64,000 bases of DNA from Trypanosoma brucei (Eukaryota), in the NCBI GenBank assembly GCA_000002445.1, contig AL929603.2, positions 96,001 to 160,000 on the forward strand, read 5' to 3'. Under the pieces are notes generated by a model. That model saw nothing but the letters and a program-made list of their open reading frames with translations, was not told the origin of the DNA and ran no database searches. A program made the position numbers and the translations under genes. Position 1 is the stretch's first letter; each line of letters starts with the position of its first letter. This document shows, one piece after another, positions 1 to 51,500 of this stretch.

Positions 1-2051
1 CTTGAATCTCACTCTGCCAGTTCGGTTACTCAGAAATGATACGCACCACTTCACAATGTGGGGTGATACCTTCATTCTGTGCATTTCCCTCGCAATTTTG
101 TCGTGGTCTACTGTATCAAATGCCTTCTCGTAGTCAACGAATACAGCACCCGTACGATATTGGTGCGTGGGACGGCAGAGGGCAGCGCGGACGTGCAGGA
201 GTTGTTCGAGCGTTGAGCATCCGGGGCGAAAGCCTGATTGCTGCGGCGTCAGCTGGGACTCAACAGTGTCTCTAAGTCTCGCGGCAATTATGCGCTCCAT
301 GACTTTGCAGAGACAGCTCGTGAGCGTCACAGGCCTGTAAGAATCGAGGTCCTCCGCCTTTTTTCCGGCCTTCAGGATGGGGATGATAACACCAGTCTTC
401 CATGCAGGCGGCACGACTCCCGTTCGTAGGCTCTCATTGAATAGCCTCAGAACAACATTCAGCGCTGTTCTGCCGAGATGTTGCAGTGCCTCGTTGTATA
501 AGCAATCAGGTCCGGCTGCGGATCCACTCGGTAGCAGTTTGATCGATCTCCGTAGTTCAGCCATCGTGATGGGACTGAACTCACTCGCTATCGTCTTTAT
601 TGGTGCCGGTGGGTGTGAGTCGGGGTGCCTTCTTGCGCGGGACGAGTACAGTTTACTGAACCTCTCAGCTTGACGGTAGTCCGTGATGGCCGCGTTATCT
701 ACAAGTACAGCCGGTGTGGTTAGTGGTCGTGGCGCATATACCTTCTTGACAATGTGCCAACTGCAGCGGTCTGACACCGCAAGTCTGGAGCATAGCGTGC
801 TCCATCTCTTCTTTGTGGTACGGTCCAGGATCTGCTTACGCGTGGCTACCAACTTTTCCCTTCGGTGGGAGGGTCCGCATCCAGCGATCTCTTCATCGAG
901 TTTCGCGAGCTCAGGTGTCCAATGTGGTGGCGTTGCTCTGCAGCCACGGGGGACGGAGACCTTCGTCGCAATGCGGATGGCGGAGCTCAATTTCTGTTCC
1001 AGGGTGTTGACGTTCTTCTCTCTACCAATTTTCCTGCAGAGCTCGTCAACCTTGAGACGGAAATTCCTCCAGTTAGCTTTTAGCCATGCGTACATGGGCT
1101 TTTGAAGCCGCGGGCAACTCAGTGCATCTGTGTCGTCTCCAACGATAACGTCGAAAAATATGTGATGGTGATCGCTATCGGGAGAATACAGCGATGTCCA
1201 CGTGTACACTGTGCAATTCCTTGACAGTGTCACATCAGGGGTGGACTCCCCGTGGTGGCGCGCGTACCTGGTGCACTCACCAGTGTTGCAGACCAGAAAC
1301 TGGTTGTCAATGCACCACTGTGTGAGGGTTTCACCCTTGGTATTTGGTGGGCTCGCGCGATCCCATGCCAACGCGTGTGCGTTAGCGTCTGCACCGATGA
1401 GCTGGGCACCGTCAGTCGTCAGAAGCGTATCTAGGTCAGTTGCCGTGAAGGTGTGTTTTGGTGGGATGTATGCCGACGTGACAGTCAGCGCCGTTCCACG
1501 TGCAAGGTGAATTGTTGCATGCACTTGTTCAATGCGACCAATAACGGCCATACCGGTCTCGACTGGTAGGTCCTCCCTCACTAGTATTGATACACCACCT
1601 CCTTTGCAGTTACGAGCTATTCCGTGATGTTGGTAGCCAGCAACGCTAAAGCAAGCCGCCTCTCCAGGCGTCATCCTTGTCTCGCTCAACAGACAAAAGG
1701 CGATCCGCTCATCAACAAGGGTTTTGTGGAGTGCTAATCTCTTTCCTTGAGATAGCCCGGCGCAGTTCCACTGCATCCCGCGCAACGACGGGCCGGGATT
1801 CTCTTCCACATCACCGGACAGCAGCATCTTAGTGCGGATGATACTGCTGATGGCACGCTGGCACGTGCCCAGGGACCGACAAATGAAAGACGGTGTCCCA
1901 GCAAGACGCTGCTGATCCCTGTGCTGTATGATGCCGTAGCCGGAGCACAGCAGTGTTCCCCATGAAAGGAACGCTGCTGGCTCTTGGCTTCCCCCGATGA
2001 TACGGGGTACTGGACCCTGGCACCACGTTGAGGTGGCCGGCATCGCCAGGG
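1..2051 (-). mobile_element. ingi non-LTR retrotransposon, 5' ~2 kb (RIME-A half, APE-like endonuclease, start of RT), truncated by the window edge
   Basis: The reverse complement matches the ingi at 26518..28519. For example, the + ORF at 36..275 equals the - ORF at 28245..28484, and the - ORF at 1734..2105 equals the + ORF at 26464..26835. The 5' end CCCTGGCGATGCCGGCCACC lies at 2051..2032 on the minus strand. The main frame reads ...LPVETGMAVIGRIEQVHATIHLARGTALTV. A 48-bp indel relative to the second copy lies near 900..950. Confidence 0.9.
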
Positions 2052-3080
2052 TTTGGAGCAGAAACGAGCCAACACCAAATGATTTCCCAATACCTGGAGT
2101 GCCAACGAGGACGCAAGGTATCTTTTTTTTATTCACGCCTGGCCCTAACCACAAATCCAGCCTCTGCTTCACAAGATACCACACTCTCATTACCTCTCGA
2201 CGAATGTACACATCCCGGTCAAACACGTAGTCTCCTGGTTCCTCCGCACCCTCTTGAATTACACTTCGCGGAATACGGAAACGGTTAAACGGCCAACCCT
2301 TCTGCGAGGTGAGCACAGCAATCTCTAAATTACCGTGACGAGGCAGTGGGTCGCACAAGTCATAAGGCGTGTGACTGACATTCACCTCCTCTTCTGTCCA
2401 CAACTCGGGCTCGCCGTCACTATTACCCACAACCTTCATGCCAAGAGGTAAATCATTGTGGCCCGATTCCACATAACCCCACGTCGCATTGTATACGGAT
2501 TCATATACTCCTTTCAGTTCGACACCATCAGCTGTTTGGTGAGCTCGTTTCCTTGCTTCTTTGGCGGCCGCCAACGCTCCATCCAACATTCCCCTCGCCA
2601 CGGGACCAACAAATTCCCTTATTTCCCCTCTTCCCTTCTCCTCCCACTGCCGGAGGTAGTAAATTTCCTTCTCAGACAGATAAATAGCTGCCCTCACTGT
2701 TTTAAATTCATCAAGCCGCCGTATCCTTCCTAGAATCCCGGCATCCAAAATATAATACTCCGGGCTCTGAACAAACACATCCATTGCCACATTCTCTGTG
2801 TCATACGTATTAGAGAATTTTTTCAGCAGAAAGTCATGCAACTTCATATCCCTCAAACCCTCACAGCGTTGCAGCAATACATCTTCAATAGAACTATTCA
2901 TCGTCCAGTTGGGCCCCTCTTCAGTTCTCTGCCGTATTTGTGGAGGCTGAGCAGCAGCAGCAGCAGGAGGTGGCGGTACATTTTCATCCCGTGGCCTCCT
3001 CATGGGCCCTTCAATATTACCTGCCACTTGTTGGTTTTCATTATTTCCTTGTGGAGCTGCGGGACTATTTGCTCTTGACA
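2052..3080 (-). pseudogene. RHS: RHS (retrotransposon hot spot) gene 5' portion, interrupted by the ingi immediately after the P-loop
   Basis: The minus-strand translation runs from the Met at 3078. It reads MSRANSPAAPQGN...NTYDTENVAMDVFVQSPEYYIL...GRGEIREFVGPVARGMLDGAL...VYNATWGYVESGHNDLPLGMKVVGN...VYIRREVMRVWYLV...GTPGIGKSFGVGSFLLQTL. It then continues in frame into the ingi (AMPATSTWCQ). The ESIYNAKW/ATWGYV and GxPGIGKS motifs are typical of RHS. Confidence 0.85.
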
Positions 3081-6000: not shown

Positions 6001-7002
6001 TAACATAATCATTCTAATATTTAGTATGTATGTCTGTGTGTGTGTAGAAATGATGAAATGTAATCGACAGTCCCTTGACTCGGAATGCGGTATTAACGTG
6101 TCTCAGATTTTAAGCATTCTTGTTCTACAAGGGAAGTCATTCGCCTTTTTTTTCCTTTTTGCGCAAACAAAAAATAAAAAGAAGAATACAGGGGTTGTAG
6201 CGGATAACTAGCTTTTTGAATCGTAGGAATATATTATGAAGCATCTACTAAGGCACAATCGTCGTTATTTCACTTTCAACACTTCTTCTGACTCTATCTA
6301 CTTTTATCCATGTTTATAAATGATACTTTTTTTTGTGAAAGTTATAACAAGAAACTAACTCGTATTTTTACTCACCGTCTTCCTTATTTCTATATTTCGC
6401 AATTGTACCATGGCAAAATATCATTCTTGTTTCCTATTTCATTGAGCAGTTATGCTTGCAGAAGAAAACAGGATGAAAATAATCAAGACCTCACCAACAG
6501 GGTCCAGACATCCTTCAAAAAAGAACGAACAAAGAAGTTAACAACGCAACCCTTCCCACAAATGAGCGTCTGTCACTGTGCAAGAAAAAACAATGGCTCT
6601 TCAACTGCACACAACACGAGAAACGATATCAGCGGCTTCAATCCCACAGTTAAAGTCACTTGACGAAACACTCCGCATATGAGACCTTTGCAAAGCAATG
6701 TATTTGCTATTAAAAAAGAAAACGCATTCCTTCACGTGCCGTTTCAACAAACTGCTAGCCAAGAACTAAGAGTATCAACACACACAGGTGATATCTACGC
6801 GTCGAATATTTGCTGCCCAGCTGACTCCAAACTCACAAAGAGGAAACAACACGTAACCACTTACAGCCCAGCTGCTAGTGTCCTTTAAGTACATACAAAT
6901 ACACAACAGCAATCATTGTCACACCACTAACTTTAGGTATCATTTAATGCGTATTTAACAAACATGATGCCCGACTCCAAATGTGAAAGGCACTTGTCAC
7001 GC

Positions 7003-7026
7003 ACCCGCCCCGCCCCCCTCCCCACC
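7003..7026. promoter_or_regulatory. C-rich / GC-box-like island (CACCCGCCCCGCCCCCCTCCCCACC) in otherwise AT-rich DNA, a possible strand-specific G-rich Pol II start-region element (speculative)
   Basis: The island is seen directly in the sequence. It is mirrored as a G-rich tract at 52209..52233. It lies between the leftward RHS at 2052..3080 and the rightward gene set. Confidence 0.2.
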
Positions 7027-10000
7027 AATTCCACAGAATGGTGGAAACAGAGCGGCAAAGGAGGAGCGGCGCGGCACTGTTAAAATAGAGCAGCTGCGCA
7101 TCAGTTGCATTGATTTTGTGGAATGCAGAGAAACCACCAGTTGAGTTTAGAGTAAAGGATGCCTCCCATAGAGCCGTGACGGCAGAATATGATGTAGACG
7201 TCGCGATTCTTTTTTTTTGTTTTGCTGCAACCTCCCGAAATGCGTTGAAACGCCAAGCGCTACCGTCACCCCCAGAGCAAAAACGTTGGGGAGAAAAAGC
7301 GGAACAATGCGTGGGTTGTGGCGCTGAAACCACAATTACCAACTGGCAAGGTGGATGGACCGCGACAGGTGAGCGGGCAAGGGGAGGTATCGCGATATGT
7401 TTGTGAAATGTGGGGAAATGTAAGAAAAGAGACCACTAAATATGATAACGATGTCAGAGCAACGAATATGAATGGCGTACAATTCCGTTCAGAAACACTG
7501 TCTGGAAACTCTGTCCGTAAAACAACAACCGGCAGCACCGACGAATTCGTAACAGAAGGTTGCGGGATGCCAGCCAAAAAAAAAACCATCAATAGGCCAC
7601 AACCACACCGAATCAGAAAGTCCATGTAAAAGTAACCAAATACACGCAGCTCAAACGCTCGAATGTTGGATACGCGGCAGGTGACACGACGGAAGGAATA
7701 TTATCCGGCGCTTGGAAGCATGTCACCACCGCAACGAATCCTCAGAAACTGGACAACTTCAAGTGTGGAGTGGCGGCTTGCATATGAACGCAGTTAATGT
7801 CAGAAAAGGGGTGAAAGGCACAGCGGGAGGAATGGCGGAGTAAAAAAGGCAGGGAGGCGGTGCCAAGACTCCCGAGCAGCCATCCGCTAAAACCTACGGC
7901 ATATGACATGTGTGTTATGGCCATCGCAGCGCAGGAGGAACTGTTGCAACAGATCAGACATGACTGTTATGGGCCCGTCACTGCCTTCAGAGGCTTTTCC
8001 AAACGAAAGGAAAGAGCGCAATGAAACAGAGTGATGCTGACGTGTGCAGAAGTCTGAAGGCATTATATCAGCGAGGTCTGTGGTGACTAAAAGCCTGAGT
8101 TGGATGCATGGTTGGAAGGGTGGTGGATCCTGCGAATAGTTGAAAGTAGGGTGCCTGTACTTTATTTCTCATATACTCGCGTGCTCCGTATACAAAATAT
8201 AAATGCGAAATGGAGCTAACAAACGCGCCAGCAAAGTGACTCTGTTCCTTTACAATGTCCAGACAATTCTTACTAAGACTCTTAAAGCTACTGGACCGAA
8301 GGAACCTCACGACCATGTGCAGCCGGCAAACGTACGAAAATGAGGAGCTGGCCGGCATCCCACCCTCTACTTGATAGCTGCTCTCAACTGGAATATCGGG
8401 GATTATGGATGGTGCAGAAAGCTCACCATTTCGTAGATTCTCCTGAATAGCAATGGAGTCTGAAGGTTAACCCAAAGAATTAAACTGTTGAACAGACCTG
8501 GTGACCCACATAGTCTTTTTTTGTGTGAAGAGTGTCGGACTGCCTTACTGCATCCCTTCGCGTGCATGCAAACTGAGCACAACGCAATGTCTCCTTTATT
8601 ATTTGAAGCATGAAAGCTCATGGATCATAGCCATGTGACAGAACGCCTTGATTACGTTAGACTGATAGGACCGCTGTGTATTTTTATCGTTTATGTTGGG
8701 ATGTGCATTTGATAGTAGCATCTGTTAATGTACAATTATTTTGATGGATTTGGCACATTACAGTGATTTCTTTTGAGAGTTTCTCTTCCCCCTCACTCTG
8801 AGTAGATGTGGGGTAACTGGTTACCTTTCTGACGTTAACATGGTTTGCCAGCTCTGTTTGGAAATGTTACGGTTTCCTCATAGACAGTTTCGAAAATTGT
8901 CCGTAAAGCTGTTTTGAATCCATGTTGCGGTTGTCACGAATCAGAAAAATTATAACGAAGACGGGTCTGCAACAAGTGATTGTGAGTAAGCGGCAATACT
9001 GCGTATCAAGTAATGTCACATCATGATGATTACAGTGCTGCTTCACAACTTCAGCATAGGGGAATGGCGGAATCGTTTCAAATGCGGAACAAATAATGAG
9101 AGTTCAATTCTTCCTTATTAAATTCCCGTGGCCGCATAAACTGTATGCAGGTGAAACATTTATCAAGGAAACTGTATTTACGAGACTTAATTCAAGGAGA
9201 GATTAGGAATGCAGATACTTCATGCTTTCACTGAACAGCCGTACATCAGACCTGTCAACTCCATTAAGTGACTGAGGAGTTAACCCATTGTAAGGTGTAT
9301 GAACATGGAGACATGGTTTGAGCAACCAACAACCAGTATTCAGTATAGTTGGCTTATGTGAAACCAAAACATCTGCATTCGTGTATGTTCAACCTGACAG
9401 CTTCGCTTACCCTTTTGTTAAGCTATAAGACACTCTTCCAGGTGTATGCAACAAAATACAGTTATGCGCGTGATCTTGCGAGTGAGGATGATAGTCTACA
9501 GGAAACATGCGAAACAGGAAAAATATATATTGAGCTGATCTGAATCCATTTGATGCAGAATGTAAGAGCACAACCCAGCTGATATTTTCGTATTAACCAA
9601 CACACTAAAGAATGATTTAAGAAGCAGGAAAAAGTTGATCCAAACAGCACTTAGCCTGGAGTTGTTTCCAATGCTCCTAGATAATAATGTGTATGATGCG
9701 TATGGGGGTTCATTACTTTTTGAGGGAGTATGAAAAAACGATGATGGGCAGAAACTGTTCGGAAGATGACAATCTTTACCATTCTTATTATTAGGTTGAC
9801 ATCCATTTTGTGATGGTTTAATGGTTTAGTATGTATGAGTGCTTTATGCTCGCTTTATTTGAACACAAACTCATGCATGCGCGAAAATTGTGAAGCTGCA
9901 TACCCACAGATATCAATTAAGGGCATCAAACTTTTGGTGTAAAGCAGTCATTTTCATATGAAGTTAGCATTCCGAAACAGTTACTTGGGAAAGGAAATTG

Positions 10001-12071
10001 AAGGTCCACCACCCTTACCAACATGCATTTTATCTGTATTTGTTGTCAAAACGGAGGTCACATATAGTCGCTGCGTAATATATTCCCTTACTTATACTCA
10101 TTAATATCCACTGACGCCTCTCTTTTCTCTCTTCGTGTGCGGGAGGCACTGCCGTCATACAGAGAGAATCGCAACATTGGATAAGAGAATGGATCTCGAG
10201 TGTGTTAGAAGGCAGTCAGAGACGATAGCAGTTGTGACGGTTGTGGTGTTCCGGGTGAATTTGGATTTGATTAATGATGAACCGCTTCGTGTAGCGGTAA
10301 GAGACCCTGATGAAACTGCATGTAAAGAAACTGGAGGAAGGGTTCACAATGGTCATAAACACGTCTTATGGATGTGATAATGTATGAAGTGAAAGTGTGG
10401 AAACAAGGTTGAGAGAAATCATGTGTGAGACTGTATTGGCCAATTTTTACAAAATGGGGATGAATTCTCTCCGTGTATGAATGCTGCGTTGGAGAGTGCA
10501 AATGATGCGTTACATGTACAAGCTGGAGAGGATGGCGACTGACGTCTGAAATTGGAATGGATGTAAAAGGCATAAAGCATTGTACCGATGCGAAAGCAAA
10601 GGGCGCATGCATGTCAACGATAGGAAACTAGTTTAGACTCTTTTTGTTCGGATATGCTTTGGCGGAAACAGTGTGCATGCAGGACCCCCGAGCATCCGAC
10701 AAAGGGATATAGAAGCGTTAACGATAGTCTCCAACTCATGGAAATCCGGCGGACATCAACTCCTCTCAATTATAAGTTACTTCGAGCTTATCAATTTCTT
10801 CCTTATGAGGTCCCATTTCCTCCACACACTTTTGCATCACAACAATGGAGAGAAGGAGAAAATGTTGAAGCGCATTATGCACTGTATCAAACTTGTTTGT
10901 GTATGTATTTGGTCTCTTCTGATATGAGTCTAACCGTTACCAACATGTTACCGGCTCTAGGAATCCATGAGCATGATGTACATAAAGTATCACGAACTTT
11001 GTGCGCGGCCCGATGTTCCACTTAGTGAGCGTCATCAAACTCAATGAGCAGAACCACATGAAAGGAGGAAATTGTGTATTTGTATGCATACATGTGTGTC
11101 AATATGTTGGTTTGTAACACTGTGGTGAGAGTAAATGGAAGTATCTTTTAATATGGAGAACACCACACATAAACACACCTCAGTGTATCGCCAAGAAATA
11201 ATGGCGGAAACGGGTCAGACAATGTTGCAAAGATATCAGTCTCAAATATATACATATGACAGTAGCCATTCTCTGGTCACACAACAAGGAAGAGCAAGGT
11301 GTAGCGTTGATTGGATGTAACGGCAGGATGAATCATTTCCTTTAGAGGACAAATGAGCAGATGCGCGTGTGCAGTCCGAACCGGCTAACTGTGAATTGCA
11401 TTTCATTGAGAAATATTTTGTTAATTCAGCAGGAAGAACGCCTTCTTTTTTCACTCTCATTTTACGCAGACATGACGGTCGATAGAGGTTTGTACCAGCT
11501 GATGCATTTACAACCGTGCACAGTGATAAATGTTAACTGATTATTCCTGTCATGTGACTCTCGAGACGTTACCAGGTGACCATGGAATTATCTTAAAGAT
11601 GTTTGGATAGAAGGGCGTCTGATAGGTGCCGGTCTTCTAATACGGCGAAAAGCTTGTAATGCATGCGTATGTTTGGTAAGATGCGAGGAAGCCATTGATT
11701 GTACTGTTGTAGTTAGCTGTTGCGCGCCGGATTGACTGGGTGTGGTTGTAGCACATCTCAGTAATGAAGTGCAGAAACCTCTCATCCATCGCAGTGATCG
11801 GCAAATATGTCTTAATTAAGTTGAATGGCAGGTGGTGTCTATGCATATGCTGGGTTGCTCGACTGCCAGAAACATGGATTAAAGCAGCAAAAGGTGTTGT
11901 CGTTTGTTTTTATCCATGCATTTGTTCAAACTATCTGTGCATCAATGAGAACTATCATTGTCTTTCAGTACAACCAACCTTTCTATACCATCACTAACAA
12001 CTCTCCTCTTCCATCCATCATTGCTAGACAAGATAACTTTCTCGATTAATTTCATTCATGATCGCACGCGT

Positions 12072-14958
12072 ATGCCGGCTGACGAAGCACAGCAAGCTCC
12101 ACCACCTCTCCCAATTACCTTTACGACACCAACACTTTTCCTGTTGCTGTTAGTGTTACTTCAACTTTATCAAATATGTGTTCTTGTTAACGCAGATGAC
12201 AGTAGGAAAGTTACGGTGAAGGCAATATCTCTGTTATACAGTCGAAAATGGGACCTACAAGTTATCAATGCCGTGAATGCCGGTTTCAATGCCTCCCTGG
12301 TTGCTCGGAACTGGACGGTGGCACCCGGGGTGAATGTTGAAGTTGCCCGCTCCCCCTCATACGGCATCGATTCGGTCCAGTTTCTGAATGATTACTTGAA
12401 GCCACTAAATGGCGATGACGCGAACAAGCTGTGCAATACATTAGAAGGGAACCAACTTGTTGGATTCGGTCCCATAACTGAGTGTCGATGGGGCATGAGG
12501 GATGTCTGCCGCATTTTTACTTCCTGCTCCTTGAGGCCACTGGCGAACTTATTACCCCAGTACGTTATGCAGTGAGTCACTTACATGTGCTAAAGCAGGG
12601 TTTCATGTATCTTGATGGGCTCCCGGGAGGTAGTGAGGCATATAATCAGGCAGTGGATTTCATATAGCGCATGGGGTACAGTTTCTGTTGTGTTTTCACG
12701 GGGGAAGACAAAGCGGGTGGCCAAGGTGGATCACCTGAGGAATTCGACGCCGTATGGGATGAGTTTGCTGGGGGAAATCCACAGGCTGTGATTATGTTTG
12801 CCGCCATGAAGCCTGATGCCAAAAAAATATCTCGTGAGGTTGGTGTCTGATCCGCGTACGGAAGATACGTTCGTGCTAACTCCGATCTTCTTGCAGAAAT
12901 CAATTGTGAGCATCTGGAAGGAGACATTGGAGGAAGCGAATGTTCCGTTTGTTCCCCATCGTGTGATTCAGACGGGGTCAAATCCTCTCACTAAGGAAGA
13001 TTATATCGACGCGGTAAAACGCTTTCAGACTGAAATGAGGAACTACTTGACTGAATACAAGGAGTGGAGTGGCTTCAATGATGCAGATCACTTTCTAAAG
13101 AGTGACGCGCACGGGGAGCTGACGATTAATGGCTGGATTACTGGAGAGGTGTTGGCGCGGGCACTGCGTAGCCATGGCTGGATGAAAAATCGCACAGCCT
13201 TCATTGAGTCGCCGTTACGTGGTTGATGGCATAGTGATCGGTGATTTTGGAGGTGAGTGCGATAGCTTTACCACTGCAAATGATGCCACTTGCCGCTGCA
13301 ACCGTGGCAGGAAGGACGTCTACATGAGGGAGATTGCTGAGAATTACCGCCTGCAGCCGCTTGTTGGCAGGCATATTATGACAACTTCCCTACAGTGTTA
13401 TATCGATCCCTCATTCCTATAGATACCACTCACCGGCCTCACCGTTGATATGGAAGATCACGAGGAGCTTCTGAGATGTTCCACACAGTTTGAAACTGGT
13501 GTGTCCACCACGACCTCATCTGGGAAAGCTGGCGAGATGAACAGTTTCTTCCTTCAGAAGGTTGTTACGGATATGCAGAAGGTTTCCGACGAGCTCAACA
13601 CATTACGACGGGAAAGGATAGTCGCTGCTGTGTTCGGCATCGTGACAAAAGCGGTGCTCGGTCTGACATTCATTGACCCTATGACACCAATCCCCCATCT
13701 GAACAGTTTCAGCAGGAATGTGATCCACTTGTCCCCAACAATGGAGCAGCAGCTATGCATGTTAGCGAGCTCCCTCTCCAGCATTCGTGCTGACTTCCAC
13801 CAATCGCGTTGTAAGGGGCGGTGAGGCGTCCGCTTTCATTGATGTGCTAAGAAAGACACTGCTCACATTTGGCTTGAACCTCAGCTCTACCGTTGTGTTG
13901 ACTGCAGGGGACTCTGTTGGAGAGTATCTTTCGAAAAGTGGTAGCACTTTTATCATTGGACTTGCTGTTGATGGCATTGTGGTAACTGAAGAGCATCTAC
14001 GTACTCGCAACAAGGTGCGCGTATTTGTCCAGTTCTCTGGCATTGCGCTGCTGTAAAATGAGTTTGTGCAAGCCTTCAACAGTAGCGACGGCGCCAAGCA
14101 CCTTTTGTTCGCAACAAGTTTGCTTTGCTAGCCAGACATCAACACGACATCGTAGACTGTGCAACGGTTCCACGAGGCGGTACGTGAGGTGGAAAAGTGG
14201 ACGCCGCTGTCGGTGCTGGGTTTCGCCACGGGTAGACTAATACAAGAGAATCTGCAAAACATGGAAAGGGTAACGTCCGGCCTGCTGCTCGATTTTTTCT
14301 TCAACCAAACAGTAATCACCATTGATGACATGCATTATATGGGCCGTACAAACATTATGATTGCATAATCAACGTTGTTGTTGCCGCTGATGACTGCGTG
14401 ACAAACTTCGGTGCTACGGATATAAGTCTGTGTGTGTGTGTGTGATCAATGGCACGTGCGCTACGGTCAGATGCACCAACACTACAGAATGCGATGTCGC
14501 CGTCGTTGATGTGCGCTGTCCCCAACGGTAATGCCCTCAACCCCTCACAACTTGCTGGTGTGGTTGATGACTCTTTATTCGTTGTGGCTCTCGCAATATG
14601 TCTAAGCTTACTTGCGTCATTCCCTCTCCGTGGCACCCGTGATAACGACAGCGCGCCGAAGGAGCCAACGGACCCTGTGACACTAATATTTACTGACATT
14701 GAGAGCAGGACTGTGTTGTGGGCTGCACACCCTGACCTGACGCCTGATGCCGTTGCAACACATCACCGTCTGATTCGTTCACTGATTGGGAGGTATGACT
14801 GCTACGAGGTGAAAACTGTTGGTGATTTGTTCACAATAGCGAGCAAGAGTCCCTTCGCTGCCGTCCACCTCGCACAGGAACTACAGCTGTGTTTCTTGCA
14901 TCATTCCTTCCGAAGGGGCTGCACAATTTCTGACAGCGCCGAATGGACAAATGCATAA
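12072..14958 (+). pseudogene. GRESAG4: Receptor-type adenylate cyclase (GRESAG4/ESAG4 family) pseudogene with multiple frameshifts and stops, and C-terminally truncated
   Basis: A signal-peptide-like start reads MPADEAQQAPPPLPITFTTPTLFLLLLVLLQ. The extracellular domain reads KVTVKAISLLYSRKWDLQVINAVNAGFNASLVARNWT...SYGIDSVQFLND. A TM helix reads SLFVVALAICLSLLASF. The class III cyclase catalytic core reads VTLIFTDIESRTVLWAAHPD...HHRLIRSLIGRYDCYEVKTVGDLFTIASKSPFAAVHLAQELQL. The reading frame is broken across the ORFs 11958..12575, 12816..13226, 13450..13824, 13787..14056 and 14449..14958. Confidence 0.8.
14428..14444. repeat. (TG)n microsatellite
   Basis: gtgtgtgtgtgtgtgtg seen in the sequence. 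Confidence 0.9.
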
Positions 14959-16380
14959 TATTACTGAGCGCTGCTTACGCACGCAGCTTATATAATGTCA
15001 CATGCGTTGTGATTTGTAGAGGGGAGTGGGCCACCAGAAATTAGGTCATTTTAATGTCAATAAGTTTTTACCGCTTGTTGGAGCCGTCATTCCCCGCACT
15101 TAACCTTTTCGAACCGAGGAGTTGGTAAAAGACGGCCAATCAACGGTATCGTCGACACCATGGCCATCAGTACGGGATTTTACATACGGTAACGAAGCGT
15201 GGGCATATGTTTTTCTTTAAACGTCATTTTTATTTTATTTTTCTGTACATTGTTGCTGTCACTTCTATGAAGTATAGCCAGAATGTCAGAGTAGTGCATT
15301 TGTGTGCAAAACAAAGAAAATAATACTCCCTTTGTTTTTCTCTCCCTCTTGGGTTGTATGAAAAGAGGGGGCTCCTGTTTGTAGGATGACAAGAGCTGTT
15401 TTGTTTCTTTCCTCAAAAAAAATTACATGCTCCATAGTTGCTCCAATATTCCCATCCCTTCATTGGAAAATGACCCGACGGCTCCGTCCATGTGAGTGAA
15501 GCGGTGTCCCTGATATTTGCCCTGATGCTTTTTCTTTTTTCCACCGTGGAACCTGCACTGCACTGCACTTGCGTTCCCTCATCCCCTCTTACAGTTATCC
15601 GTTTCACTTCCCCTGTTGAGGAATGCGTATTTCCAACCGTGCGAGATATCAAACAGTAAATCTGTCGGACAAACAAAAGGCTGAGAAATTCTTCACATAA
15701 ACTTATGAGCTTCCACCACTGAGGCACGCACGCTCACCAACACCAACAAAGTCAAGCAAAAGTCGCTGCATATTAATACTCAATGGCGCCATAATGTTCC
15801 CTTTTCCTTTTTCCTTCCGTTGGGGTTACACAACACTTGTGGGAACCCGCTTCACTTCGTCCTTTTCCAATTATGAAGGTAACTGTGTTTTGTTTGCCAC
15901 ACTTCCGCTTGTTATTTCTCCAACTGGTTTCACTTTCAGAAGTCGCGTGTACACCACTTGTGGAGGAAATATTACATTAAGCAAAACCAACAACGAAAAA
16001 AATGGCAATACATTCTAAAACATTCCCTCAACATTGCAGAACTCATGAAAGGAACCATGGTTACTGCCACCAGGCTAAGCAAAGACCAAAAGGCTTTTGA
16101 AATGTGTTTTCGAATCGAATGTACCACTGGTATTTCTTTAACATGCAAACACAACACAAATCACTGCATACACAAACACGAGTGCCAAGCTTCTTATAGA
16201 GATATTTCAATACCTGAAAAAGGGACCGGGACGCAAAGTTTGGGAATGGAATTTCCCCACCCGTAACGGTGATTATCTAAGACGCTCAATCAACACATTT
16301 CCGCCTGTCCACAGTTAATCGGAAACCGTAGTGCCCATATGTCTCCCTAATTACTGTTGTCCCTTCAGTTTTCACAGTAG

Positions 16381-16743
16381 ATGTTTCAATTGGTTTCTGC
16401 GGCCGAGGTAAATAAAGCTTATGTGTCATATCCGGGAGGTGTTTCCATGTGTCTTCGCTTTCCGTTTTGTCACTGCGTTTGGGCTCACGCAATGACATTA
16501 ATTGAAATTTCAGGCCACTACCATATATGGGTGGCTCGTGGAGAGAGTGAGGATTGGGATTATTCTAACAGCTTTGTGGTTGTGTGTGTCGTGCTTTTGG
16601 AAAATATTGCAACCAATGAAAGGGAAGGCAAGTGTCACCTTACTTTCCATGCTGCGACATCAATGCATAAGAATTATATGCTAGTTGCTCTGCGAGGGAA
16701 GGCCGTGAAGGCGAAGGTTAGCTTCCGGTTTAAGGAAGTGTAG
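16381..16743 (+). CDS. Hypothetical 120-aa ORF conserved in both arms (mirror at 48726..49151 -); possibly non-coding
   Basis: The ORF is present in both arms with about 11% aa divergence and no frameshift. No family was recognised. Confidence 0.2.
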   Translation: MFQLVSAAEVNKAYVSYPGGVSMCLRFPFCHCVWAHAMTLIEISGHYHIWVARGESEDWDYSNSFVVVCVVLLENIATNEREGKCHLTFHAATSMHKNYMLVALRGKAVKAKVSFRFKEV

Positions 16744-16971: not shown

Positions 16972-19900
16972 ATGAAGGTTAGGATTACTGACCATAACAC
17001 ATTTTGGCATGCACCTCAATTACTTCCTTATAACACTTCCCCCCCTCGTTTGATTCATCGCTTAGCTCTATTATTAAAAAAGAAAAAGCATTTCCTCAAC
17101 ACTCAGCACCTCAAGGAATCGGAAACGGGAACTACAATGTCAGGAAACCAAGGAAGAAAGCGACAGCGCAGCTCATCACCTGAGCAGTCAGAAGCTTTAA
17201 AGGAACCATCAACTACTGAACAAAATAAACTCACCACCGTTACAATCACCGAAGAGACGCGTGACGCCGGTAATGATGAAACTGTGATATCATTACTGAA
17301 TGAGCATGAGAAATTGATTAAACAAACGACACGGCTGGAAAGCAGTGTGAAGGCACTTAAATGTTTCATGAGTAATCTCACAGCTATGAGTGGCGAAAGG
17401 CAAGGTGGTGTGTGTGATGACACCGAATGCATACATAGAGTAACATTATATAATGCTGCTGATAATGCCTTCAGTGACGAAGGACTATATGAAGGTGCTC
17501 TTTCCTCACTCTGTGGCCGTATTCAAGCTAAGAAATTAACCATCACGTTATCAAAGGGTTGGAAATTTAACTCACGACAAGTCAGTAAGCTAAAGCAGTT
17601 AGAAGAGTTACGCATTGAATATCCGCGTGGAAAACTTGTGAATATGATATCTTTGAAGAGACTGCAAATGTTGAAAAGGCTTTGTCTCAGGAGCAACAAT
17701 ATTGACAACAATGACGGTCGTCACTTATTCAATATTGGAACATTGGAGGAGTTGGCTATTACTGATACCATGCAACTGACAAATATCAGAGGAATCTCTC
17801 GCTTGACTAACCTGAAGTGTCTTGAGTTAAATTCCACAAATATTGACGACAGCTGTGTGGAGGAAATAAGTGCATGTGCTAAACTGTCCAAACTGTGTAT
17901 ATCTAAATGCAACAATATCACAGACGCGACACCAATTTCACAACTTGCAGCGCTGGAAGAGTTGAATCTAAGCAATTGCCACATAACGAAGGGAATAGGA
18001 ACACTTGGCATGTTGTTGCGACTGCGTATGCTTGACTTGAGTGGTGTTCCTGTGGAAGATAATTGTCTGAAGGATTTGTGTGACTGTGGGTCTCTTGAAA
18101 GGCTGAACATTTCTTATCGTATTCAGCTGACAGATATCAATCCACTCTCCAATGCCACTGCTATTGAGGAATTGAACCTTAACGGTTGTCGCCGAATAAC
18201 ACGGGGGATAGGCGTTGTGTGGGCATTACCAAAGCTCCGTGTATTGCACATGAAGGATGTGCACCTGAGCGAGCCATCTCTCGATTCAGTTGGGACTGGT
18301 GGACCACTTGTAAAGGTCAGTCTTGATAACTGCGCAGGCTTTGGTGATATGACACTCTTATCCAGCATTGTTACACTCGAGGAGCTGAATATTCAAAAAT
18401 GTGCTGACATCATTAGTGGTGTGGGTTGCCTTGGTACACTGCCATACCTGCGTGTGCTTAACATAAAGGAGGCACACATCTCGTCCCTTGACTTTACTGG
18501 TATTGGTGCCTCAAAATCCCTTTTACAGCTCAATATGGAGAGTATCACGGGACTGAGTAATGTGGAAGCACTCGCCAACATTTTGACTCTGGAAAAACTA
18601 AGCCTTCACGGCTGCACGGGTATTGACGCAGGAATTGGATGTCTTGGAAACCTGCCACAGCTTAAAATGTTGGACCTGTCTGGCACAAATACCGACAATG
18701 AGTCTCTCAGAAGTTTATGCCTATCGCAGACAGTGGTGTCCCTCAACCTTTCCCATTGTTGGAAAATGACAAATGTGTCCCATATTTCAAGCCTCGAAGC
18801 ATTGAATGAACTGAATCTGAGCAACTGTTTTGGAATAAATGCAGGATGGGAAGCACTTGAAAAACTTCAGCAGCTACATGTGGCAATCCTCTCGAATACA
18901 CATATTACTGATAGAGACATATCCCATTTCAGCAACTGCAAAAACCTTATTACGCTTGATCTTTCTTTCTGCAATAAGTTACTTGATGTTACAGCTCTCT
19001 CTAACATCACTACGCTTGAGGAGTTGAATCTTGATAGTTGTTCAAACATCAGAAAAGGGCTGAGCGTTCTTGGAGAGTTGCCACGGCTTTGTGTGTTGAA
19101 CATAAAGGGTGTACAGTTGGAAGACTCAGTTATTGTTTCACTAGGGAATGGTAACTCATTTGTAAGGCTCAGTCTTGAGAACTGCAAAGGGTTTGGTGAT
19201 GTCGCGCCCCTCTCGAACCTTGTTACACTTGAGGAACTGAATCTCCACTACTGTGACAAAGTAACCTCTGGAATGGGAACACTGGGCAGGCTACCGCAGC
19301 TTCGTGTACTGGATTTGGGACGGACACAAGTTGATGATAATTCCCTTGAGAATATCTGCACATGCTCAAGCCCACTTGTATCATTAAATCTTTCGAATTG
19401 CAAGAAAATAACATCTATTTCTGCAATAGCTTCCCTTACAGCATTGGAGGAACTCAACATTGACAACTGCTGTAATGTAACATCCGGCTGGAATGTATTT
19501 GGTACACTTCACCAACTGCGTGTAGCCACACTGTCGAATACACGCACTAATGATGAAAACGTACGGCACGTTAGCGAGTGCAAGTCTTTGAATACACTCA
19601 ACCTTGCGTTTTGCAAAGATATAACAGACGTCACAGCACTTTCTAAAATTACCATGCTTGAGGAGTTGAACCTTGATTGTTGCCATAACATCAGAAAAGG
19701 TATTGAAACTCTTGGAACGCTTCCCAAGGCACGTATCCTAAGCATGAAGGAATGTTACATGGGAGACGGATATGCGCAACAATGTTCCATCCTTGGGAAT
19801 AGTAAGTCACTTGTGAAACTGAATCTTGAGAGGTCAAGAGGGCGCATATCTGTGAAAGCTCTGTCTAACGTTGCGACGTTGGAGGAATTGGTACTCGATC

Positions 19901-21318
19901 ATGCACGGAAAGTATGTTGTATACCGTCATTTTCCTGTCTACCGCGCCTTCGAGTACTGAATCTGAAATATACGGATATCAATGGTGATGTAACTAAAAA
20001 TATTTCCGAATCAAAATCGCTGCGATCACTCAACTTATCACATTGCAAATGGGTAACTGATATATCAGTATTATCTTCCTTATTGACACTGGAGGAGCTG
20101 AATGTTAACTGCTGCAATGGAATACGAAAAGGCTGGGAGTCGCTCGGAAAGCTGCCTCTACTACGTGTGGCAATTCTATCTGATACTAAAATCACCGCTA
20201 AAGATATAGCTTGCCTCAGCAGTTGCAAAAAGCTGGTGAAACTAAAGTTCTTCCAGTGTGAGAAGTTGTCAGATGTTACGGTGGTGTATAAAATTCAATC
20301 ACTGGAGGAGCTGATAGTTACGAGCTGTTCAGACGGCCTCAAGGGACTGAATGCCCTTGGTACACTCCCACGGTTGCGTTTTCACCATCTGCGAAATGTG
20401 AGAGGTAGTGATATATCTGTTGAATCTATTGGGACGAGCAAATCTCTCGTGAGGCTTCATATTGAAGTGGGCGAGGAGTTGACAGATATAACACCCCTCT
20501 CCAACATCACGTCCCTTGAGGAATTGTCATTGCGGGATTACCGTAAACCCCCGGAAGGAGTCGGGACACTTGGGAAACTGCCACGGCTTAAATCGCTGGA
20601 TCTCGGTTTATCTCGCATTAGCGATAGCACACTTTATTGTATTTGTCTGTCTCGATCAATTACGTCACTTAACCTAGACTCCAGTTGGAAACTAACAGAC
20701 ATATCTCATATATCAAATCTTACGGCACTGGAGGAATTGAATCTGGGAGGATGTTACTACATAACTTCAGGCTGGGAAGCACTAAGCGAATTACCACGAC
20801 TTCGTGTGCTCAACTTGGAATTCACCAGAGCTACGACGCGTGACGGTGGATACTATATCAGCAGATGCAAATACCTCGTCACACTCAACCTTGAATTGTG
20901 TGATATGACCGATGCTTCATGTCTTGCTAATATCAAGACACTGGAGGAGTTGCATATAGGAGGATGCGACGAGCTAACGCAGGGGTTTAGTGCACTTTTC
21001 ACTCTTCCACAGTTGCGCATTCTTAACTTGATTTGTTCTCTTATTACAGATGAAGATCTCAGGGAAATTCAACCACCCCATACCATTGAGGAGCTCAATC
21101 TTTCTTATTGTGTGGAGCTTAATGATATTACACCACTTGGGAGGATAAAATCAATTAAAAAATTGCATCTCCGTCAGAGACATGATGTCAGAAGGCCTAC
21201 AGAAGGATTCAGGAGTCTTTTGGAATTGCCATGTCTTTCTTGGGTTGACCTAGACAACGTGTATGGCTGGTCTGATGTTTCTTGTGAACTGAGAAAAAGG
21301 AGAGTACATATCCGTTAA
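16972..21318 (+). CDS. LRRP: Leucine-rich repeat protein (LRRP, ESAG8-like), 1448 aa; the likely true start is Met56 at 17137 (MSGNQGRKRQR...)
   Basis: The ORF is uninterrupted over 4.3 kb. It has a basic/coiled-coil N-terminus followed by about 16 super-repeats of roughly 70 aa. Each super-repeat is three LRRs, with the pattern ...ITD.TPLSN.T.LEELNLS.C..IT.G...LG.LP.LR.L.L.G. An identical-length paralogue lies at 44214..48560. Confidence 0.9.
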   Translation: MKVRITDHNTFWHAPQLLPYNTSPPRLIHRLALLLKKKKHFLNTQHLKESETGTTMSGNQGRKRQRSSSPEQSEALKEPSTTEQNKLTTVTITEETRDAGNDETVISLLNEHEKLIKQTTRLESSVKALKCFMSNLTAMSGERQGGVCDDTECIHRVTLYNAADNAFSDEGLYEGALSSLCGRIQAKKLTITLSKGWKFNSRQVSKLKQLEELRIEYPRGKLVNMISLKRLQMLKRLCLRSNNIDNNDGRHLFNIGTLEELAITDTMQLTNIRGISRLTNLKCLELNSTNIDDSCVEEISACAKLSKLCISKCNNITDATPISQLAALEELNLSNCHITKGIGTLGMLLRLRMLDLSGVPVEDNCLKDLCDCGSLERLNISYRIQLTDINPLSNATAIEELNLNGCRRITRGIGVVWALPKLRVLHMKDVHLSEPSLDSVGTGGPLVKVSLDNCAGFGDMTLLSSIVTLEELNIQKCADIISGVGCLGTLPYLRVLNIKEAHISSLDFTGIGASKSLLQLNMESITGLSNVEALANILTLEKLSLHGCTGIDAGIGCLGNLPQLKMLDLSGTNTDNESLRSLCLSQTVVSLNLSHCWKMTNVSHISSLEALNELNLSNCFGINAGWEALEKLQQLHVAILSNTHITDRDISHFSNCKNLITLDLSFCNKLLDVTALSNITTLEELNLDSCSNIRKGLSVLGELPRLCVLNIKGVQLEDSVIVSLGNGNSFVRLSLENCKGFGDVAPLSNLVTLEELNLHYCDKVTSGMGTLGRLPQLRVLDLGRTQVDDNSLENICTCSSPLVSLNLSNCKKITSISAIASLTALEELNIDNCCNVTSGWNVFGTLHQLRVATLSNTRTNDENVRHVSECKSLNTLNLAFCKDITDVTALSKITMLEELNLDCCHNIRKGIETLGTLPKARILSMKECYMGDGYAQQCSILGNSKSLVKLNLERSRGRISVKALSNVATLEELVLDHARKVCCIPSFSCLPRLRVLNLKYTDINGDVTKNISESKSLRSLNLSHCKWVTDISVLSSLLTLEELNVNCCNGIRKGWESLGKLPLLRVAILSDTKITAKDIACLSSCKKLVKLKFFQCEKLSDVTVVYKIQSLEELIVTSCSDGLKGLNALGTLPRLRFHHLRNVRGSDISVESIGTSKSLVRLHIEVGEELTDITPLSNITSLEELSLRDYRKPPEGVGTLGKLPRLKSLDLGLSRISDSTLYCICLSRSITSLNLDSSWKLTDISHISNLTALEELNLGGCYYITSGWEALSELPRLRVLNLEFTRATTRDGGYYISRCKYLVTLNLELCDMTDASCLANIKTLEELHIGGCDELTQGFSALFTLPQLRILNLICSLITDEDLREIQPPHTIEELNLSYCVELNDITPLGRIKSIKKLHLRQRHDVRRPTEGFRSLLELPCLSWVDLDNVYGWSDVSCELRKRRVHIR

Positions 21319-29695: not shown

Positions 29696-29740
29696 CGGCT
29701 GCTGAAATGGCTTCCGGCTTACAGAAGCACACCGAGCAGG

Positions 29741-48560: not shown

Positions 48561-51500
48561 TCAGCAGTCTTTGGGCACAAAAGAAATGATAAATGTAATG
48601 AGGTTTTTTGTATATATAAAGAAATCAATAAAGTGTGGCAAAAATATACTGTTTATTATTCTCAGTTGCTTACACGCTTAGCAGCCACAAGGGATTAATT
48701 TTATTCTCGTTGTTGTATTTATGAATTACTGACCCAGTGCCTGAAGCACGCAGCAACAGTAGTTTCTGACAGTAGTATCAGGAAGTCTTTGCACTTCCCT
48801 AAACCGGAAGCTAACCTTCGCCTTCACGACCTTCCCTTGCAGAGCAACTAGCATATAATCGTGATGCATTGATGCCGCGGCATGGAAAGTAAGGTGACAC
48901 TTGCCTTCCCTTTCATTGGCTGCAATATTTTCCAAAAGCACGGCACACACAACCACAAAGCTGTTAGAATAATTCCAACCCTCACTCTCTCCACGAGCCA
49001 CCCATCTACGGTAGTGGCCTGAAATTTCAATTAATGTCATTGCGTGAGCCCAAACGCAGTGACAAAACGGAAAGCGAAGACACATGGAAACACCTCCAGG
49101 ATATGACACATACGCTTTATTTACCTCGGCCACAGAAACCAATTGAAACATCTACTGTGAAAACTGAAGGGACAACAGTAATTAGGGAGACATATGGGCA
49201 CTACGGTTTCCGATTAACTGTGGACAGGCGGAAATGTGCTGATTGAGCGTCTTAGATAATCACCGTTACGGGCGGGGAAATTCCATTCCCAAACTTTGCG
49301 TCCCGGTCCCTTTTTCCAGGTATTGAAATATCTCTATAAGAAGCTTGGCACTCGTGTTTGTGTATGCAGTGATTTGTGTTCAAATAAAACGAGTGTAAAG
49401 CACTCATATATACTAAACCGTTAAGGCATCACAAAAACGATATCGACCTAATAAAAAGAATGGTAAATATTGTCATCTTCCGAACAGTTTCTGTCCATCA
49501 TCCTTTTTCATACTCCCTCAAAAAGTAATGAACCTCCATACGCATACACAATATTATCTAGGAGCATTGGAAACAACTCCAGGCCAAGTGCAGTTTGGAT
49601 CAACTTTTTCCTGCTTCTTAAATCATTCTTTAGTATGTTGGTTAATACGAAAATATCAGCCGGGTTGTGCTCTTACATTCTGCATGAAATGGATTCAGAG
49701 CAGCTCAATATATATTTTCCCTGTTTCGCATGCTTCCTGTAGACTATCATCCTCACTCGCAAGATCACGCGCATAACTGTATTTTGTTGCATACACCTGG
49801 AAGAGTGTCTTATAGCTTAACAAAAGGGTAAGCGAAGCTATCAGGTTGAACATACACGGATGCATATGCTTTGGTTTCACATAAGCCAACTATACTGAAT
49901 ACTGGTTGTTGGTTGCTCAAACCATGTCTCCATGTCCATACACCTTACAATAGGTTAACTCCTCAGTCACTTAATGGAGTTGACAGGTCTGATGTACGGC
50001 TGTTCAATGAAGGCATGAAGTATCTGCATTCCTAATCTCTCCTTAGATTAAGTCTCGTAAATACAGTTTCCTTGAAAGAAATGTTTCACCTGTATACAGT
50101 TTATGCGGACACGGGAATTTAAGAGGGAGATTTGGACTCTCATTATTTGTTCCGCATTTGAAACGATTCCGCCATTCCCCTATGCTGCAGTTATGAAGCA
50201 GCACTGTAATCATCATGATGTGACATTATTTGATACGCAGTATTGCCGCTTACTCACAATGCCTTTTTGCAGACCCGTCTCCATTATCATTTTTCGGATT
50301 CGTGACAACCGCAACATGGATTCAAAACAGCTTTACGGACAATTTGCGAAACTGTGCGTGATGATACCGTAACTTTGCCAAACAGAGCTGGCAAACCATG
50401 TTAACGTCAGAAAGGAAACCAGTTACCCCACATCTACTCGGAGTGAGGGGGAAAGGAACTCTCAACAGAAATCACTGTAATGTGCCGAATCCACTAGAAT
50501 GATTGCACATTAACAGATGCTACTATCAAATGCACATCCCAACATAAACGACAAAAATACACAGCGGTCCTATCAGTCTAACGTAATCAAGGCGTTCTGT
50601 CACATGGCTATGATCCATGAGCTTTCATGCTTCAAATAATAAAGGAGACATTGCGTTGTGCTCAGTTTGCATGCACGCGAAGGGATGCAGTAAGGCAGTC
50701 CGGCATTTTTTTACACAAAAAAAGACCACGTGGGTCACCAGGTCTGTTCAACATTTTAATTCTTTGAGTTAACCTTCAGATTCCATTGCTATTCAGAAGA
50801 ATCCACGAAACGGTGAGCTTTACACACCATCCATAATCCCCGATATTCCAGTTGGGAGCAGCTGCTGAGTAGAGGGTGAGATGCCGCCCAGCTCTCCATT
50901 TTCGCACGTTTGCCGACTGCACATGGTCGTGAGGTTCCTTCGGTCGAATAGCTTTAAGATCCTTAATACAAATCGTGTGACCTTCCAAAGGAACAGAGTC
51001 ACTTTGCTGGCGCGTTTGTTAGCTCCATTTCTCATTTATATTTTGTATACGGAGCATACGAGTATATGAGAAATAAAGTACAGGCACCCTACTTTCAACT
51101 ATTCGCAGGATCCACCACTCTTCTAACCATGCATCCAACTCAGGCTTTTAGTCACCACAGACCTCGCTGATATAATGCCTTCAGACTTCTGCACACGTCA
51201 GCATCACTCTGTCGCATTGCGCTCTTTCCTTGAGTTTGAAAAAGTCTCTGAAGGCAGTGACGGGCCCATAACAGTCATGTCTGATTCGTTGCAACAGTTC
51301 CTCCTGTGCCGTGCCGCCATACCACACATGTCATATGCCGTAGGTTTTAGCGGATGGCTGCTCGGGAGTCTTGGCACCGCCCCCCTGCCTTTTTTACTCC
51401 GCCATTCCTTCCGCTGTGCCTTTCACCCCTTCTTTGACATTCACTGCGTTCATATGTAAGCCGCCACTCCACACTTGAAGCTGTCCAGTTTCTGAGGATT

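What the first reader, a model, noticed from the sequence alone, without database searches (positions are those of the whole stretch)
9862..16160. 6.29-kb arm-specific segment with an adenylate-cyclase (GRESAG4) pseudogene, bounded by 8-bp AACACAAA microhomology
The left arm contains 9870..16160, which is missing from the right arm. The left boundaries each carry AACACAAA (9862..9869 and 16153..16160). The right arm has a single copy at 49363..49370 (TTTGTGTT). This is the footprint of a microhomology-mediated deletion in the right arm and not an insertion in the left. The lost segment carries a decayed receptor-type adenylate cyclase gene. That gene has an intact signal peptide and TM, a recognisable catalytic core, multiple frameshifts and a truncated C-terminus. 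ESAG4-like cyclases are normally associated with VSG expression sites or dispersed GRESAG4 arrays. One embedded in an RHS/LRRP palindrome is worth noting.
Basis: partly seen in the sequence, partly recalled or inferred. Interest (0 to 1): 0.55.

Follow-up and report, generated by a model that had tools for sequence, protein, structure and literature searches.

The report
Arm-specific dead adenylate cyclase segment
One arm of a large inverted duplication on Trypanosoma brucei chromosome 1 keeps a 6.3-kb stretch holding a dead adenylate-cyclase gene that the other arm lacks; the junction looks like an ordinary short-repeat deletion, though which arm changed is not proven.

Summary
The window is T. 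brucei brucei TREU927 chromosome 1. A 6,291-bp segment (9870-16160) is present in the left arm only. AACACAAA lies at both ends of it. The right arm has one copy, at 49373-49380, not 49363-49370 as written.

The segment carries a GRESAG4-type cyclase pseudogene (12058 to about 14937). It has six frame changes and six in-frame stops. It stops at residue 962 of 1229 of GRESAG4.3, so only the first half of the catalytic domain remains.

The repeat is longer than 8 nt. It is a 17-nt imperfect match, with weak similarity over about 56 nt. This fits T. brucei microhomology-mediated joining and argues against a target-site duplication. The segment has no transposon hallmarks.

T. b. equiperdum chromosome 1 has the same filled unit. 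It also has a separate empty unit whose junction switches at a different point in the same repeat. Deletion is therefore the favoured direction. Placing the event in the right arm is not proven, because trees of the flanks are unresolved and gene conversion is rife. Copying the segment in from a filled donor remains possible.

This is ordinary subtelomere-like turnover in a published genome, of low novelty.

The parts
9870..16160 (+). Left-arm-specific segment of 6,291 bp (equivalently 9862-16152). It is unique within the window.
   Evidence: arm alignment; no other copy and no ingi/RIME pieces; no terminal inverted or long terminal repeats.
9862..9878 (+). Left copy of the boundary repeat, 'L-type': AACACAAA-C-TCA-TGCAT. 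The exact 8-mer is 9862-9869. Weak similarity to the right copy continues to about 9917.
   Evidence: Anchored extension after the 8-mer has P of about 0.0008, and beyond the 17-mer about 0.013.
16153..16169 (+). Right copy of the boundary repeat, 'R-type': AACACAAA-TCA-C-TGCAT. The exact 8-mer is 16153-16160. Weak similarity continues to about 16211.
49364..49380 (-). Single R-type repeat at the empty junction of the right arm. The 8-mer is at 49373-49380.
12058..14937 (+). Receptor-type adenylate cyclase (GRESAG4) pseudogene. It aligns to residues 1-962 of the 1229 residues of GRESAG 4.3. Frame changes lie near 12090-12108, 12480, 12824, 13210, 13802-13818 and 14338. There are six in-frame stops.
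   Evidence: DNA homology to a gambiense chromosome 7 GRESAG4 ends at 14899.
14659..14904 (+). Remnant of the class III cyclase catalytic domain, first half only (Pfam PF00211 positions 3-88 of 183). It is preceded by an intact transmembrane helix at about 14551-14628.
9870..12057 (+). 2.2 kb upstream of the pseudogene with no recognisable coding content.
   Evidence: no Pfam hits. (no similarity to the flanks of the gambiense chromosome 7 GRESAG4).
14938..16152 (+). 1.2 kb of unassigned sequence between the truncation point and the right boundary. It belongs to the same near-identical TREU927/equiperdum haplotype block as the downstream genes.
16381..16743 (+). Context: small DUF1181 gene (XP_846397.1) that precedes LRRP genes at several T. 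brucei loci.
16972..21318 (+). Context: left-arm LRRP gene (XP_846398.1). Its right-arm twin is 44214-48560 on the minus strand (XP_846402.1).

Best explanation
The unit 'flank - GRESAG4 pseudogene segment - DUF1181 - LRRP' is the older form, and empty units are deletion products.

Inferred mechanism: a break or a stalled replication fork in or near the 6.3-kb segment was repaired by annealing two imperfect direct repeats, AACACAAA-C-TCA-TGCAT at 9862 and AACACAAA-TCA-C-TGCAT at 16153. T. brucei lacks classical end joining, so this kind of microhomology or micro-single-strand-annealing repair is what would be expected. The flaps were removed. One repeat copy was left and 6,291 bp were lost.

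In the TREU927 right arm the switch lies within or to the left of the 8-mer, so the surviving copy is R-type.

The cyclase gene was already dead and truncated before this happened, so the loss had no functional cost.

Shown: the indel, the repeats, the pseudogene lesions, and conservation of the filled form in a second strain.

Inferred: the direction of change, the repair pathway, and above all which lineage the event happened in.
For: - The repeat extends beyond the 8-mer to an imperfect 17-mer. Anchored extension has P of about 0.0008, and P of about 0.013 for similarity beyond the 17-mer. T. brucei microhomology joining uses 5-20 bp with mismatches tolerated, and one pairing can give several different junctions (PMC3045614).
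- A non-transposon insertion gives no reason for a direct repeat at both ends. A deletion selects for one.
- The segment has no inverted or long terminal repeats, no poly(A) and no ingi/RIME pieces. It has no transposase or reverse transcriptase.
- T. b. equiperdum L002 has the same filled unit with the same boundaries and nearly all the same frame changes and the same truncation. It is 4.9-5.3% diverged inside the segment, so the filled form is old.
- The empty equiperdum unit L003 keeps the first 8 nt of the segment (CTCATGCA) before switching to right-flank sequence. That junction derives from a filled copy.
- The right arm also lacks 4.7 kb of the ingi element that the left arm keeps whole.
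Against: - The footprint alone is symmetric between deletion and insertion.
- A unit outside the palindrome (L003) is also empty. If the two window arms are sisters, as their shared rearranged RHS-ingi junction suggests, parsimony needs one insertion against two deletions.
- Rooted site patterns do not resolve the tree: 59/44/42.
- Experimental T. brucei microhomology deletions were 81-948 bp in total. This one is 6,291 bp.
- L003's left flank resembles L002, while its right flank is about 6% diverged in the first 500 bp (29 sites unique to L003). Its junction may therefore come from gene conversion and not from an independent deletion.
- No other TREU927 LRRP unit could be read.
Confidence: 0.6

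Rival explanations
1. The segment was copied into the left-arm lineage. An originally empty left arm was broken upstream of DUF1181. It was repaired by RAD51-dependent invasion of a filled donor (the allele or a paralogous unit) on the LRRP side. Synthesis ran through the GRESAG4 segment, and the second end was captured at the AACACAAA/TGCAT microhomology. This is one-sided microhomology gene conversion.
For: - One-sided microhomology gene conversion, allelic and ectopic, is documented in T. brucei.
- The empty state is shared by the right arm and by the separate equiperdum unit L003, so one gain is more parsimonious on a tree that pairs the two window arms.
- The arms are mosaics of 88-99.6% identity, which shows frequent conversion.
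- TREU927 and equiperdum filled units switch from about 5% to about 0.3% divergence near 14850-15070. A conversion tract that crossed the left boundary has therefore occurred.
Against: - It needs a pre-existing filled donor that already carries both repeats. It moves the origin elsewhere but does not explain it.
- Segments copied experimentally were 28-1084 bp, not 6.3 kb.
- It is no better than deletion at explaining the imperfect 17-mer.
Confidence: 0.28
2. The segment is a mobile element, or was moved by one, and inserted into the left arm with an 8-bp target-site duplication.
For: Formally, an exact 8-bp direct repeat flanks the segment and the empty site has one copy.
Against: - There are no terminal inverted repeats, long terminal repeats or poly(A)/poly(T) ends.
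- There are no element proteins, no ingi/RIME sequence and no second copy in the window.
- The content is a 3'-truncated cellular pseudogene with 2.2 kb of upstream sequence, unlike a processed retrocopy.
- Similarity continuing past the 8-mer has P of about 0.0008 under this model.
- From general knowledge, no cut-and-paste DNA transposons are known in trypanosomatids.
Confidence: 0.04
3. Assembly artefact: the palindrome was mis-assembled, and the segment was dropped from one arm or added to the other.
For: Large palindromes and RHS/ingi-rich regions are hard to assemble.
Against: - An independent T. b. equiperdum assembly (GCA_003543875.1) contains both a filled and an empty unit, with its own sequence differences.
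- The arms differ by about 5% throughout, so they are distinguishable.
- The junction is clean.
Confidence: 0.03

Closest known systems
GRESAG 4.3 receptor-type adenylate cyclase of T. brucei (UniProt Q99280); more broadly the ESAG4/GRESAG4 family
   Same: Same architecture up to the break: signal peptide, two periplasmic-binding-protein-like extracellular domains, one transmembrane helix, and the start of the class III cyclase domain. Identity is 75% overall and 67-88% in the larger aligned blocks.
   Different: It is dead. It has six frame changes and six stops, a 13-residue deletion, and lacks the last 267 residues, including the second half of the catalytic domain. It is not in a VSG expression site.
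Microhomology-mediated deletion in T. brucei (Glover, Jun and Horn 2011, PMC3045614)
   Same: It has an imperfect 17-nt microhomology within the reported 5-20 bp range, no filler bases, and one copy retained. Alternative switch points within one pairing are known experimentally and are seen here between the TREU927 right arm and equiperdum L003.
   Different: This is a natural event of 6,291 bp, against 81-948 bp in the assay. The initiating break and the pathway are inferred, and the polarity is not proven.
One-sided microhomology gene conversion (same paper)
   Same: It would give the same final structure if a filled donor was copied into an empty recipient.
   Different: It needs a filled donor, and reported tracts were 28-1084 bp.
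The ESAG4-ESAG8 neighbours in bloodstream VSG expression sites (Hertz-Fowler 2008, PMC2567434)
   Same: A cyclase gene lies directly upstream, on the same strand, of a leucine-rich-repeat gene.
   Different: - A DUF1181 gene lies in between.
- ESAG4's closest relative is reported to be Tb11.01.8820, and ESAG8's closest relatives are Tb927.1.3670 and Tb927.3.580, not these LRRP genes (PMC3605285).
- A gambiense chromosome 7 GRESAG4 has no LRRP within 10 kb.
The 160-kb RHS/LRRP/ingi region of TREU927 chromosome I (Hall et al. 2003, recalled from memory; the paper is not held)
   Same: The window's proteins are exact matches to chromosome 1 entries XP_846397, XP_846398, XP_846402 and XP_846406.
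   Different: I could not read whether that paper describes this arm difference.

Membership tests
Trypanosome receptor-type adenylate cyclase (GRESAG4/ESAG4) | Extracellular periplasmic-binding-protein-like domains (PF25495, PF25493) | tested here: met
   E-values from 3.7e-12 to 2.6e-27 across four fragments.
Trypanosome receptor-type adenylate cyclase (GRESAG4/ESAG4) | Single transmembrane helix followed by a complete class III cyclase domain (PF00211) | tested here: not met
   The helix is present, but only profile positions 3-88 of 183 of the domain remain. Homology ends at 14899-14937.
Trypanosome receptor-type adenylate cyclase (GRESAG4/ESAG4) | Closest relatives are family members | tested here: met
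   GRESAG 4.3 at 75% identity; other T. brucei and T. congolense cyclases at 38-57%.
Trypanosome receptor-type adenylate cyclase (GRESAG4/ESAG4) | Intact reading frame (a functional gene) | tested here: not met
   Six frame changes and six in-frame stops, almost all shared with the equiperdum copy.
Microhomology-mediated deletion footprint | Two repeat copies flank the segment in the long form and one remains in the short form, with no filler bases | tested here: met
Microhomology-mediated deletion footprint | Microhomology of the length and quality used by T. brucei (5-20 bp, mismatches tolerated) | tested here: met
   17 nt with two 1-nt offsets. Range taken from PMC3045614.
Microhomology-mediated deletion footprint | The long form is ancestral (polarity from an outgroup) | tested here: inconclusive
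   The equiperdum outgroup-like unit is empty but carries 8 nt of the segment. Rooted site patterns are 59/44/42. The gambiense chromosome 9 unit does not reach the junction.
Microhomology-mediated deletion footprint | Deletion size within the experimentally observed range | tested here: not met
   6,291 bp against 81-948 bp.
Transposable element insertion with target-site duplication | Short direct repeat of target sequence at both ends | tested here: met
   Exact 8-mer. The similarity continues imperfectly beyond it, which a duplication does not predict.
Transposable element insertion with target-site duplication | Terminal inverted or long terminal repeats, or a poly(A) tail | tested here: not met
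Transposable element insertion with target-site duplication | Element-encoded transposase, reverse transcriptase or endonuclease, or similarity to ingi/RIME | tested here: not met
Transposable element insertion with target-site duplication | Multiple dispersed copies in the genome | not testable with these tools
   There is only one copy in the window. TREU927 DNA outside the window could not be fetched.

The most novel reading that the evidence does not exclude
The same-strand order 'cyclase - (DUF1181) - leucine-rich-repeat gene' in this chromosome-internal RHS region is a decayed relic of the ancestral linkage that was later captured as the ESAG4-ESAG8 pair of bloodstream VSG expression sites. 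The empty units would then record its repeated loss at an imperfect-repeat deletion hotspot.
Probability: 0.05. Interest if true: 0.5.

Novelty: new member of a known kind. Interest (0 to 1): 0.18.

Why it matters
It matters little in itself. The gene is a long-dead cyclase fragment in a published chromosome. The indel is the kind of change expected in RHS/ingi-rich, recombination-prone T. brucei DNA.

Its modest value is as a clean natural example of a multi-kilobase deletion, or its reciprocal conversion, at an imperfect microhomology. The organism relies on microhomology joining, and two different junction outcomes are preserved in two genomes.

It also marks how a 2 x 19.6-kb palindrome becomes asymmetric. 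The two left-arm-only blocks, this segment and 4.7 kb of ingi, account for the length difference between the arms.

Tried and rejected
- Fetching TREU927 DNA around the other LRRP/DUF1181 units: six exact-protein look-ups failed because that assembly is not in the index.
- The equiperdum chromosome 2 LRRP locus (L004) starts at a contig end inside the gene and misses the junction.
- The gambiense chromosome 9 unit (L001) shares homology only from window 16465, 312 bp short of the junction.
- The gambiense chromosome 7 GRESAG4 (L005) has no LRRP or DUF1181 within 10 kb and no similarity to the flanks of the segment. The idea of a recurrent cyclase-LRRP linkage gained no support.
- A DUF1181 homologue search added no new accessible loci.
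- Quartet and rooted site-pattern analyses gave a mosaic and no polarity.
- A free local alignment of the two boundaries is only marginally above shuffles: score 16, against a shuffle mean of 12.8 and maximum of 19. Only the anchored test is significant.
- A weak second cyclase-like match at 15509-15823 (E = 0.035) was treated as noise.
- The chromosome I and II genome papers are not held. Text searches found no paper describing this indel.
- The seven known siRNA-producing inverted repeats do not include this palindrome.
Full report
**Source of the window.** Exact-sequence look-ups identify three proteins of T. brucei brucei TREU927 chromosome 1 (1,064,672 bp). These are the left-arm LRRP (16972-21318, XP_846398.1), the right-arm LRRP (44214-48560 on the minus strand, XP_846402.1) and RHS5a (60384-62411, XP_846406.1). 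From memory, this lies in the RHS/LRRP/ingi-rich region described when the chromosome was published. That paper is not held.

**Architecture.**
- Self-comparison and protein mapping show a large palindrome centred near 35,095-35,140.
- The left arm runs from 4520 and the right arm ends at 54711.
- Two blocks are present only in the left arm: the 6,291-bp segment under study, and about 4.7 kb of an ingi retroposon (26766-31470).
- Once those two blocks are removed, the arms are about 19.6 kb each.
- Identity between the arms is a mosaic of 88-99.6% per 500 bp, with no step at the junction. This points to repeated gene conversion.

**The observation.**
- The global arm alignment gives a single large indel, 6,291 bp at left 9862-16152. 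All other indels are 50 bp or shorter.
- AACACAAA is at 9862-9869 and at 16153-16160.
- The right arm has one copy on the minus strand at 49373-49380.

**The pseudogene.**
- ORF fragments match the two extracellular periplasmic-binding-like domains of trypanosome cyclases and the start of the class III catalytic domain.
- The best database match is GRESAG 4.3 (Q99280) at 75% identity.
- Translated alignment covers residues 1-962 of 1229, with six frame changes and six in-frame stops.
- The native ATG at 12058 is out of frame with the signal-peptide core. The transmembrane helix is intact.
- Only profile positions 3-88 of 183 of the catalytic domain survive.
- DNA homology to an intact gambiense GRESAG4 ends at 14899.
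- The remaining 2.2 kb upstream and 1.2 kb downstream have no recognisable content.

**The repeat is more than an 8-mer.**
- Aligning the boundaries gives AACACAAA-C-TCA-TGCAT on the left and AACACAAA-TCA-C-TGCAT on the right. Weaker similarity continues to about 56 nt.
- I compared an anchored extension against random pairs drawn from the unique segment and the right flank. It gives P of about 0.0008 after the 8-mer and about 0.013 beyond the 17-mer.
- There is no similarity to the left of the 8-mer.

**Could it be a mobile element?** The segment has no terminal inverted repeats, long terminal repeats or poly(A). It has no ingi/RIME sequence and no element proteins. An 8-bp target-site duplication would not predict the extended imperfect match. 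A 17-bp duplication would not be expected to have acquired two indels while the arms differ by only about 5%.

**A second genome.**
- T. b. equiperdum chromosome 1 (CM010672.1) has a filled unit, L002. It is collinear with window 8049-31289. It has the same boundaries, nearly all the same frame changes and the same truncation.
- Its differing alignment columns against TREU927 are 6.9% in the left flank and 4.9-5.3% inside the segment. They fall to about 0.3% from roughly 14850-15070 onward. That switch coincides with the point where the cyclase gene is truncated.
- The filled form is therefore old, and at least one conversion tract has crossed its left boundary.
- About 42 kb upstream, on the same strand, is an empty unit, L003. 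It is collinear with the left arm's outer flank from window 2462.
- L003's junction reads AACACAAA-CTCATGCA-CAAACACG. It keeps the first 8 nt of the segment and then switches to right-flank sequence.
- The TREU927 right arm instead switches within or before the 8-mer.
- Different junctions from one imperfect pairing are reported for experimental T. brucei microhomology joining.

**Polarity.** The footprint alone cannot separate deletion from insertion.

Points in favour of deletion:
- A direct repeat at both ends is what a repeat-mediated deletion selects for. A non-transposon insertion gives no reason for one.
- T. brucei lacks classical end joining and uses 5-20 bp imperfect microhomologies.
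- L003's junction derives from a filled copy.
- The right arm has also lost most of its ingi element.

Points against a simple 'right-arm deletion':
- L003 is empty too. The two window arms share a rearranged RHS-ingi junction that L003 lacks, so one gain is more parsimonious than two losses.
- Patterns rooted with the gambiense chromosome 9 LRRP split 59/44/42 among the three trees.
- Near the left junction, the filled copies do not group together.
- L003's left flank looks like L002 while its right flank is about 6% diverged in the first 500 bp. Its junction may therefore be a conversion product.
- One-sided microhomology gene conversion is documented and would give the same structure.
- The event is about seven times larger than the largest experimental deletion.

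**Conclusion on polarity.** Deletion is the favoured direction of change at the level of the repeat family, at about 0.6. Which lineage it happened in is open. Copying in from a filled donor is the main rival, at about 0.28.

**Comparison with known systems.**
- The cyclase upstream of a leucine-rich-repeat gene recalls the ESAG4-ESAG8 order in expression sites.
- Published phylogenies, however, derive ESAG4 from Tb11.01.8820 and ESAG8 from Tb927.1.3670/Tb927.3.580.
- A gambiense chromosome 7 GRESAG4 has no LRRP nearby.
- I therefore treat the resemblance as probably coincidental.

**Verdict.** Interest is low.

Noticed in passing
window 26451-31470 versus 39038-38711 (minus strand): The left arm holds a near full-length ingi inserted in an RHS pseudogene. 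The right arm has only its first ~315 bp (to 38724), joined directly to CTCC plus an A-run (38724-38711), at the same site. This is a second left-only block of about 4.7 kb. The A-rich tails differ between the arms, so it is not a simple clean deletion.
   Followed up: partly
window 26739-26780: The ingi reading frame encodes LLSGDVEENPGP, a 2A-like 'self-cleaving' peptide motif. The right-arm remnant breaks off exactly after GDVE.
   Followed up: no
window about 14850-15070; L002 about 6830-7050: Divergence between TREU927 and T. b. equiperdum drops sharply from about 5% to about 0.3%. The drop coincides, to within about 100 bp, with the point where the cyclase gene is truncated. It may be an old recombination joint that has been reused.
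   Followed up: partly
L003 (T. b. equiperdum CM010672.1 24298-47603): A third LRRP unit lies on the same strand as the filled unit and about 42 kb upstream. It lacks the cyclase segment and continues into an RHS gene where the window arms have the ingi. It could be a paralogue, or the other haplotype assembled in tandem.
   Followed up: partly
window 17651-17960 (inside the left-arm LRRP): A 300-bp patch is 7.4% different from the equiperdum orthologue, inside a region that is otherwise about 0.3% different. It looks like a short gene-conversion patch from another LRRP copy.
   Followed up: no
window 16381-16743 and about 48789-49214 (minus strand): A small DUF1181 gene precedes the LRRP in both arms, at 120 aa on the left and 141 aa on the right. 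It recurs on chromosomes 1, 2, 4, 6 and 7 (Tb927.2.680, Tb927.2.940, Tb927.4.150, Tb927.7.7550).
   Followed up: partly
window 35073-35137: The palindrome centre lies between two head-to-head RHS N-terminal fragments (34514-35119 on the plus strand, 35092-35700 on the minus strand). A non-palindromic spacer of about 60 bp sits there.
   Followed up: no
window about 14428: There is a (TG)n run inside the pseudogene, just before the transmembrane region. It is 12 bp longer in T. b. equiperdum.
   Followed up: no
window 1-2118 (minus strand) and 2047-3036 (minus strand): Another ingi copy, cut by the window edge, is inserted in an RHS pseudogene just outside the left arm. It is 98.6-98.8% identical to the ingi at 26499-28519.
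   Followed up: no
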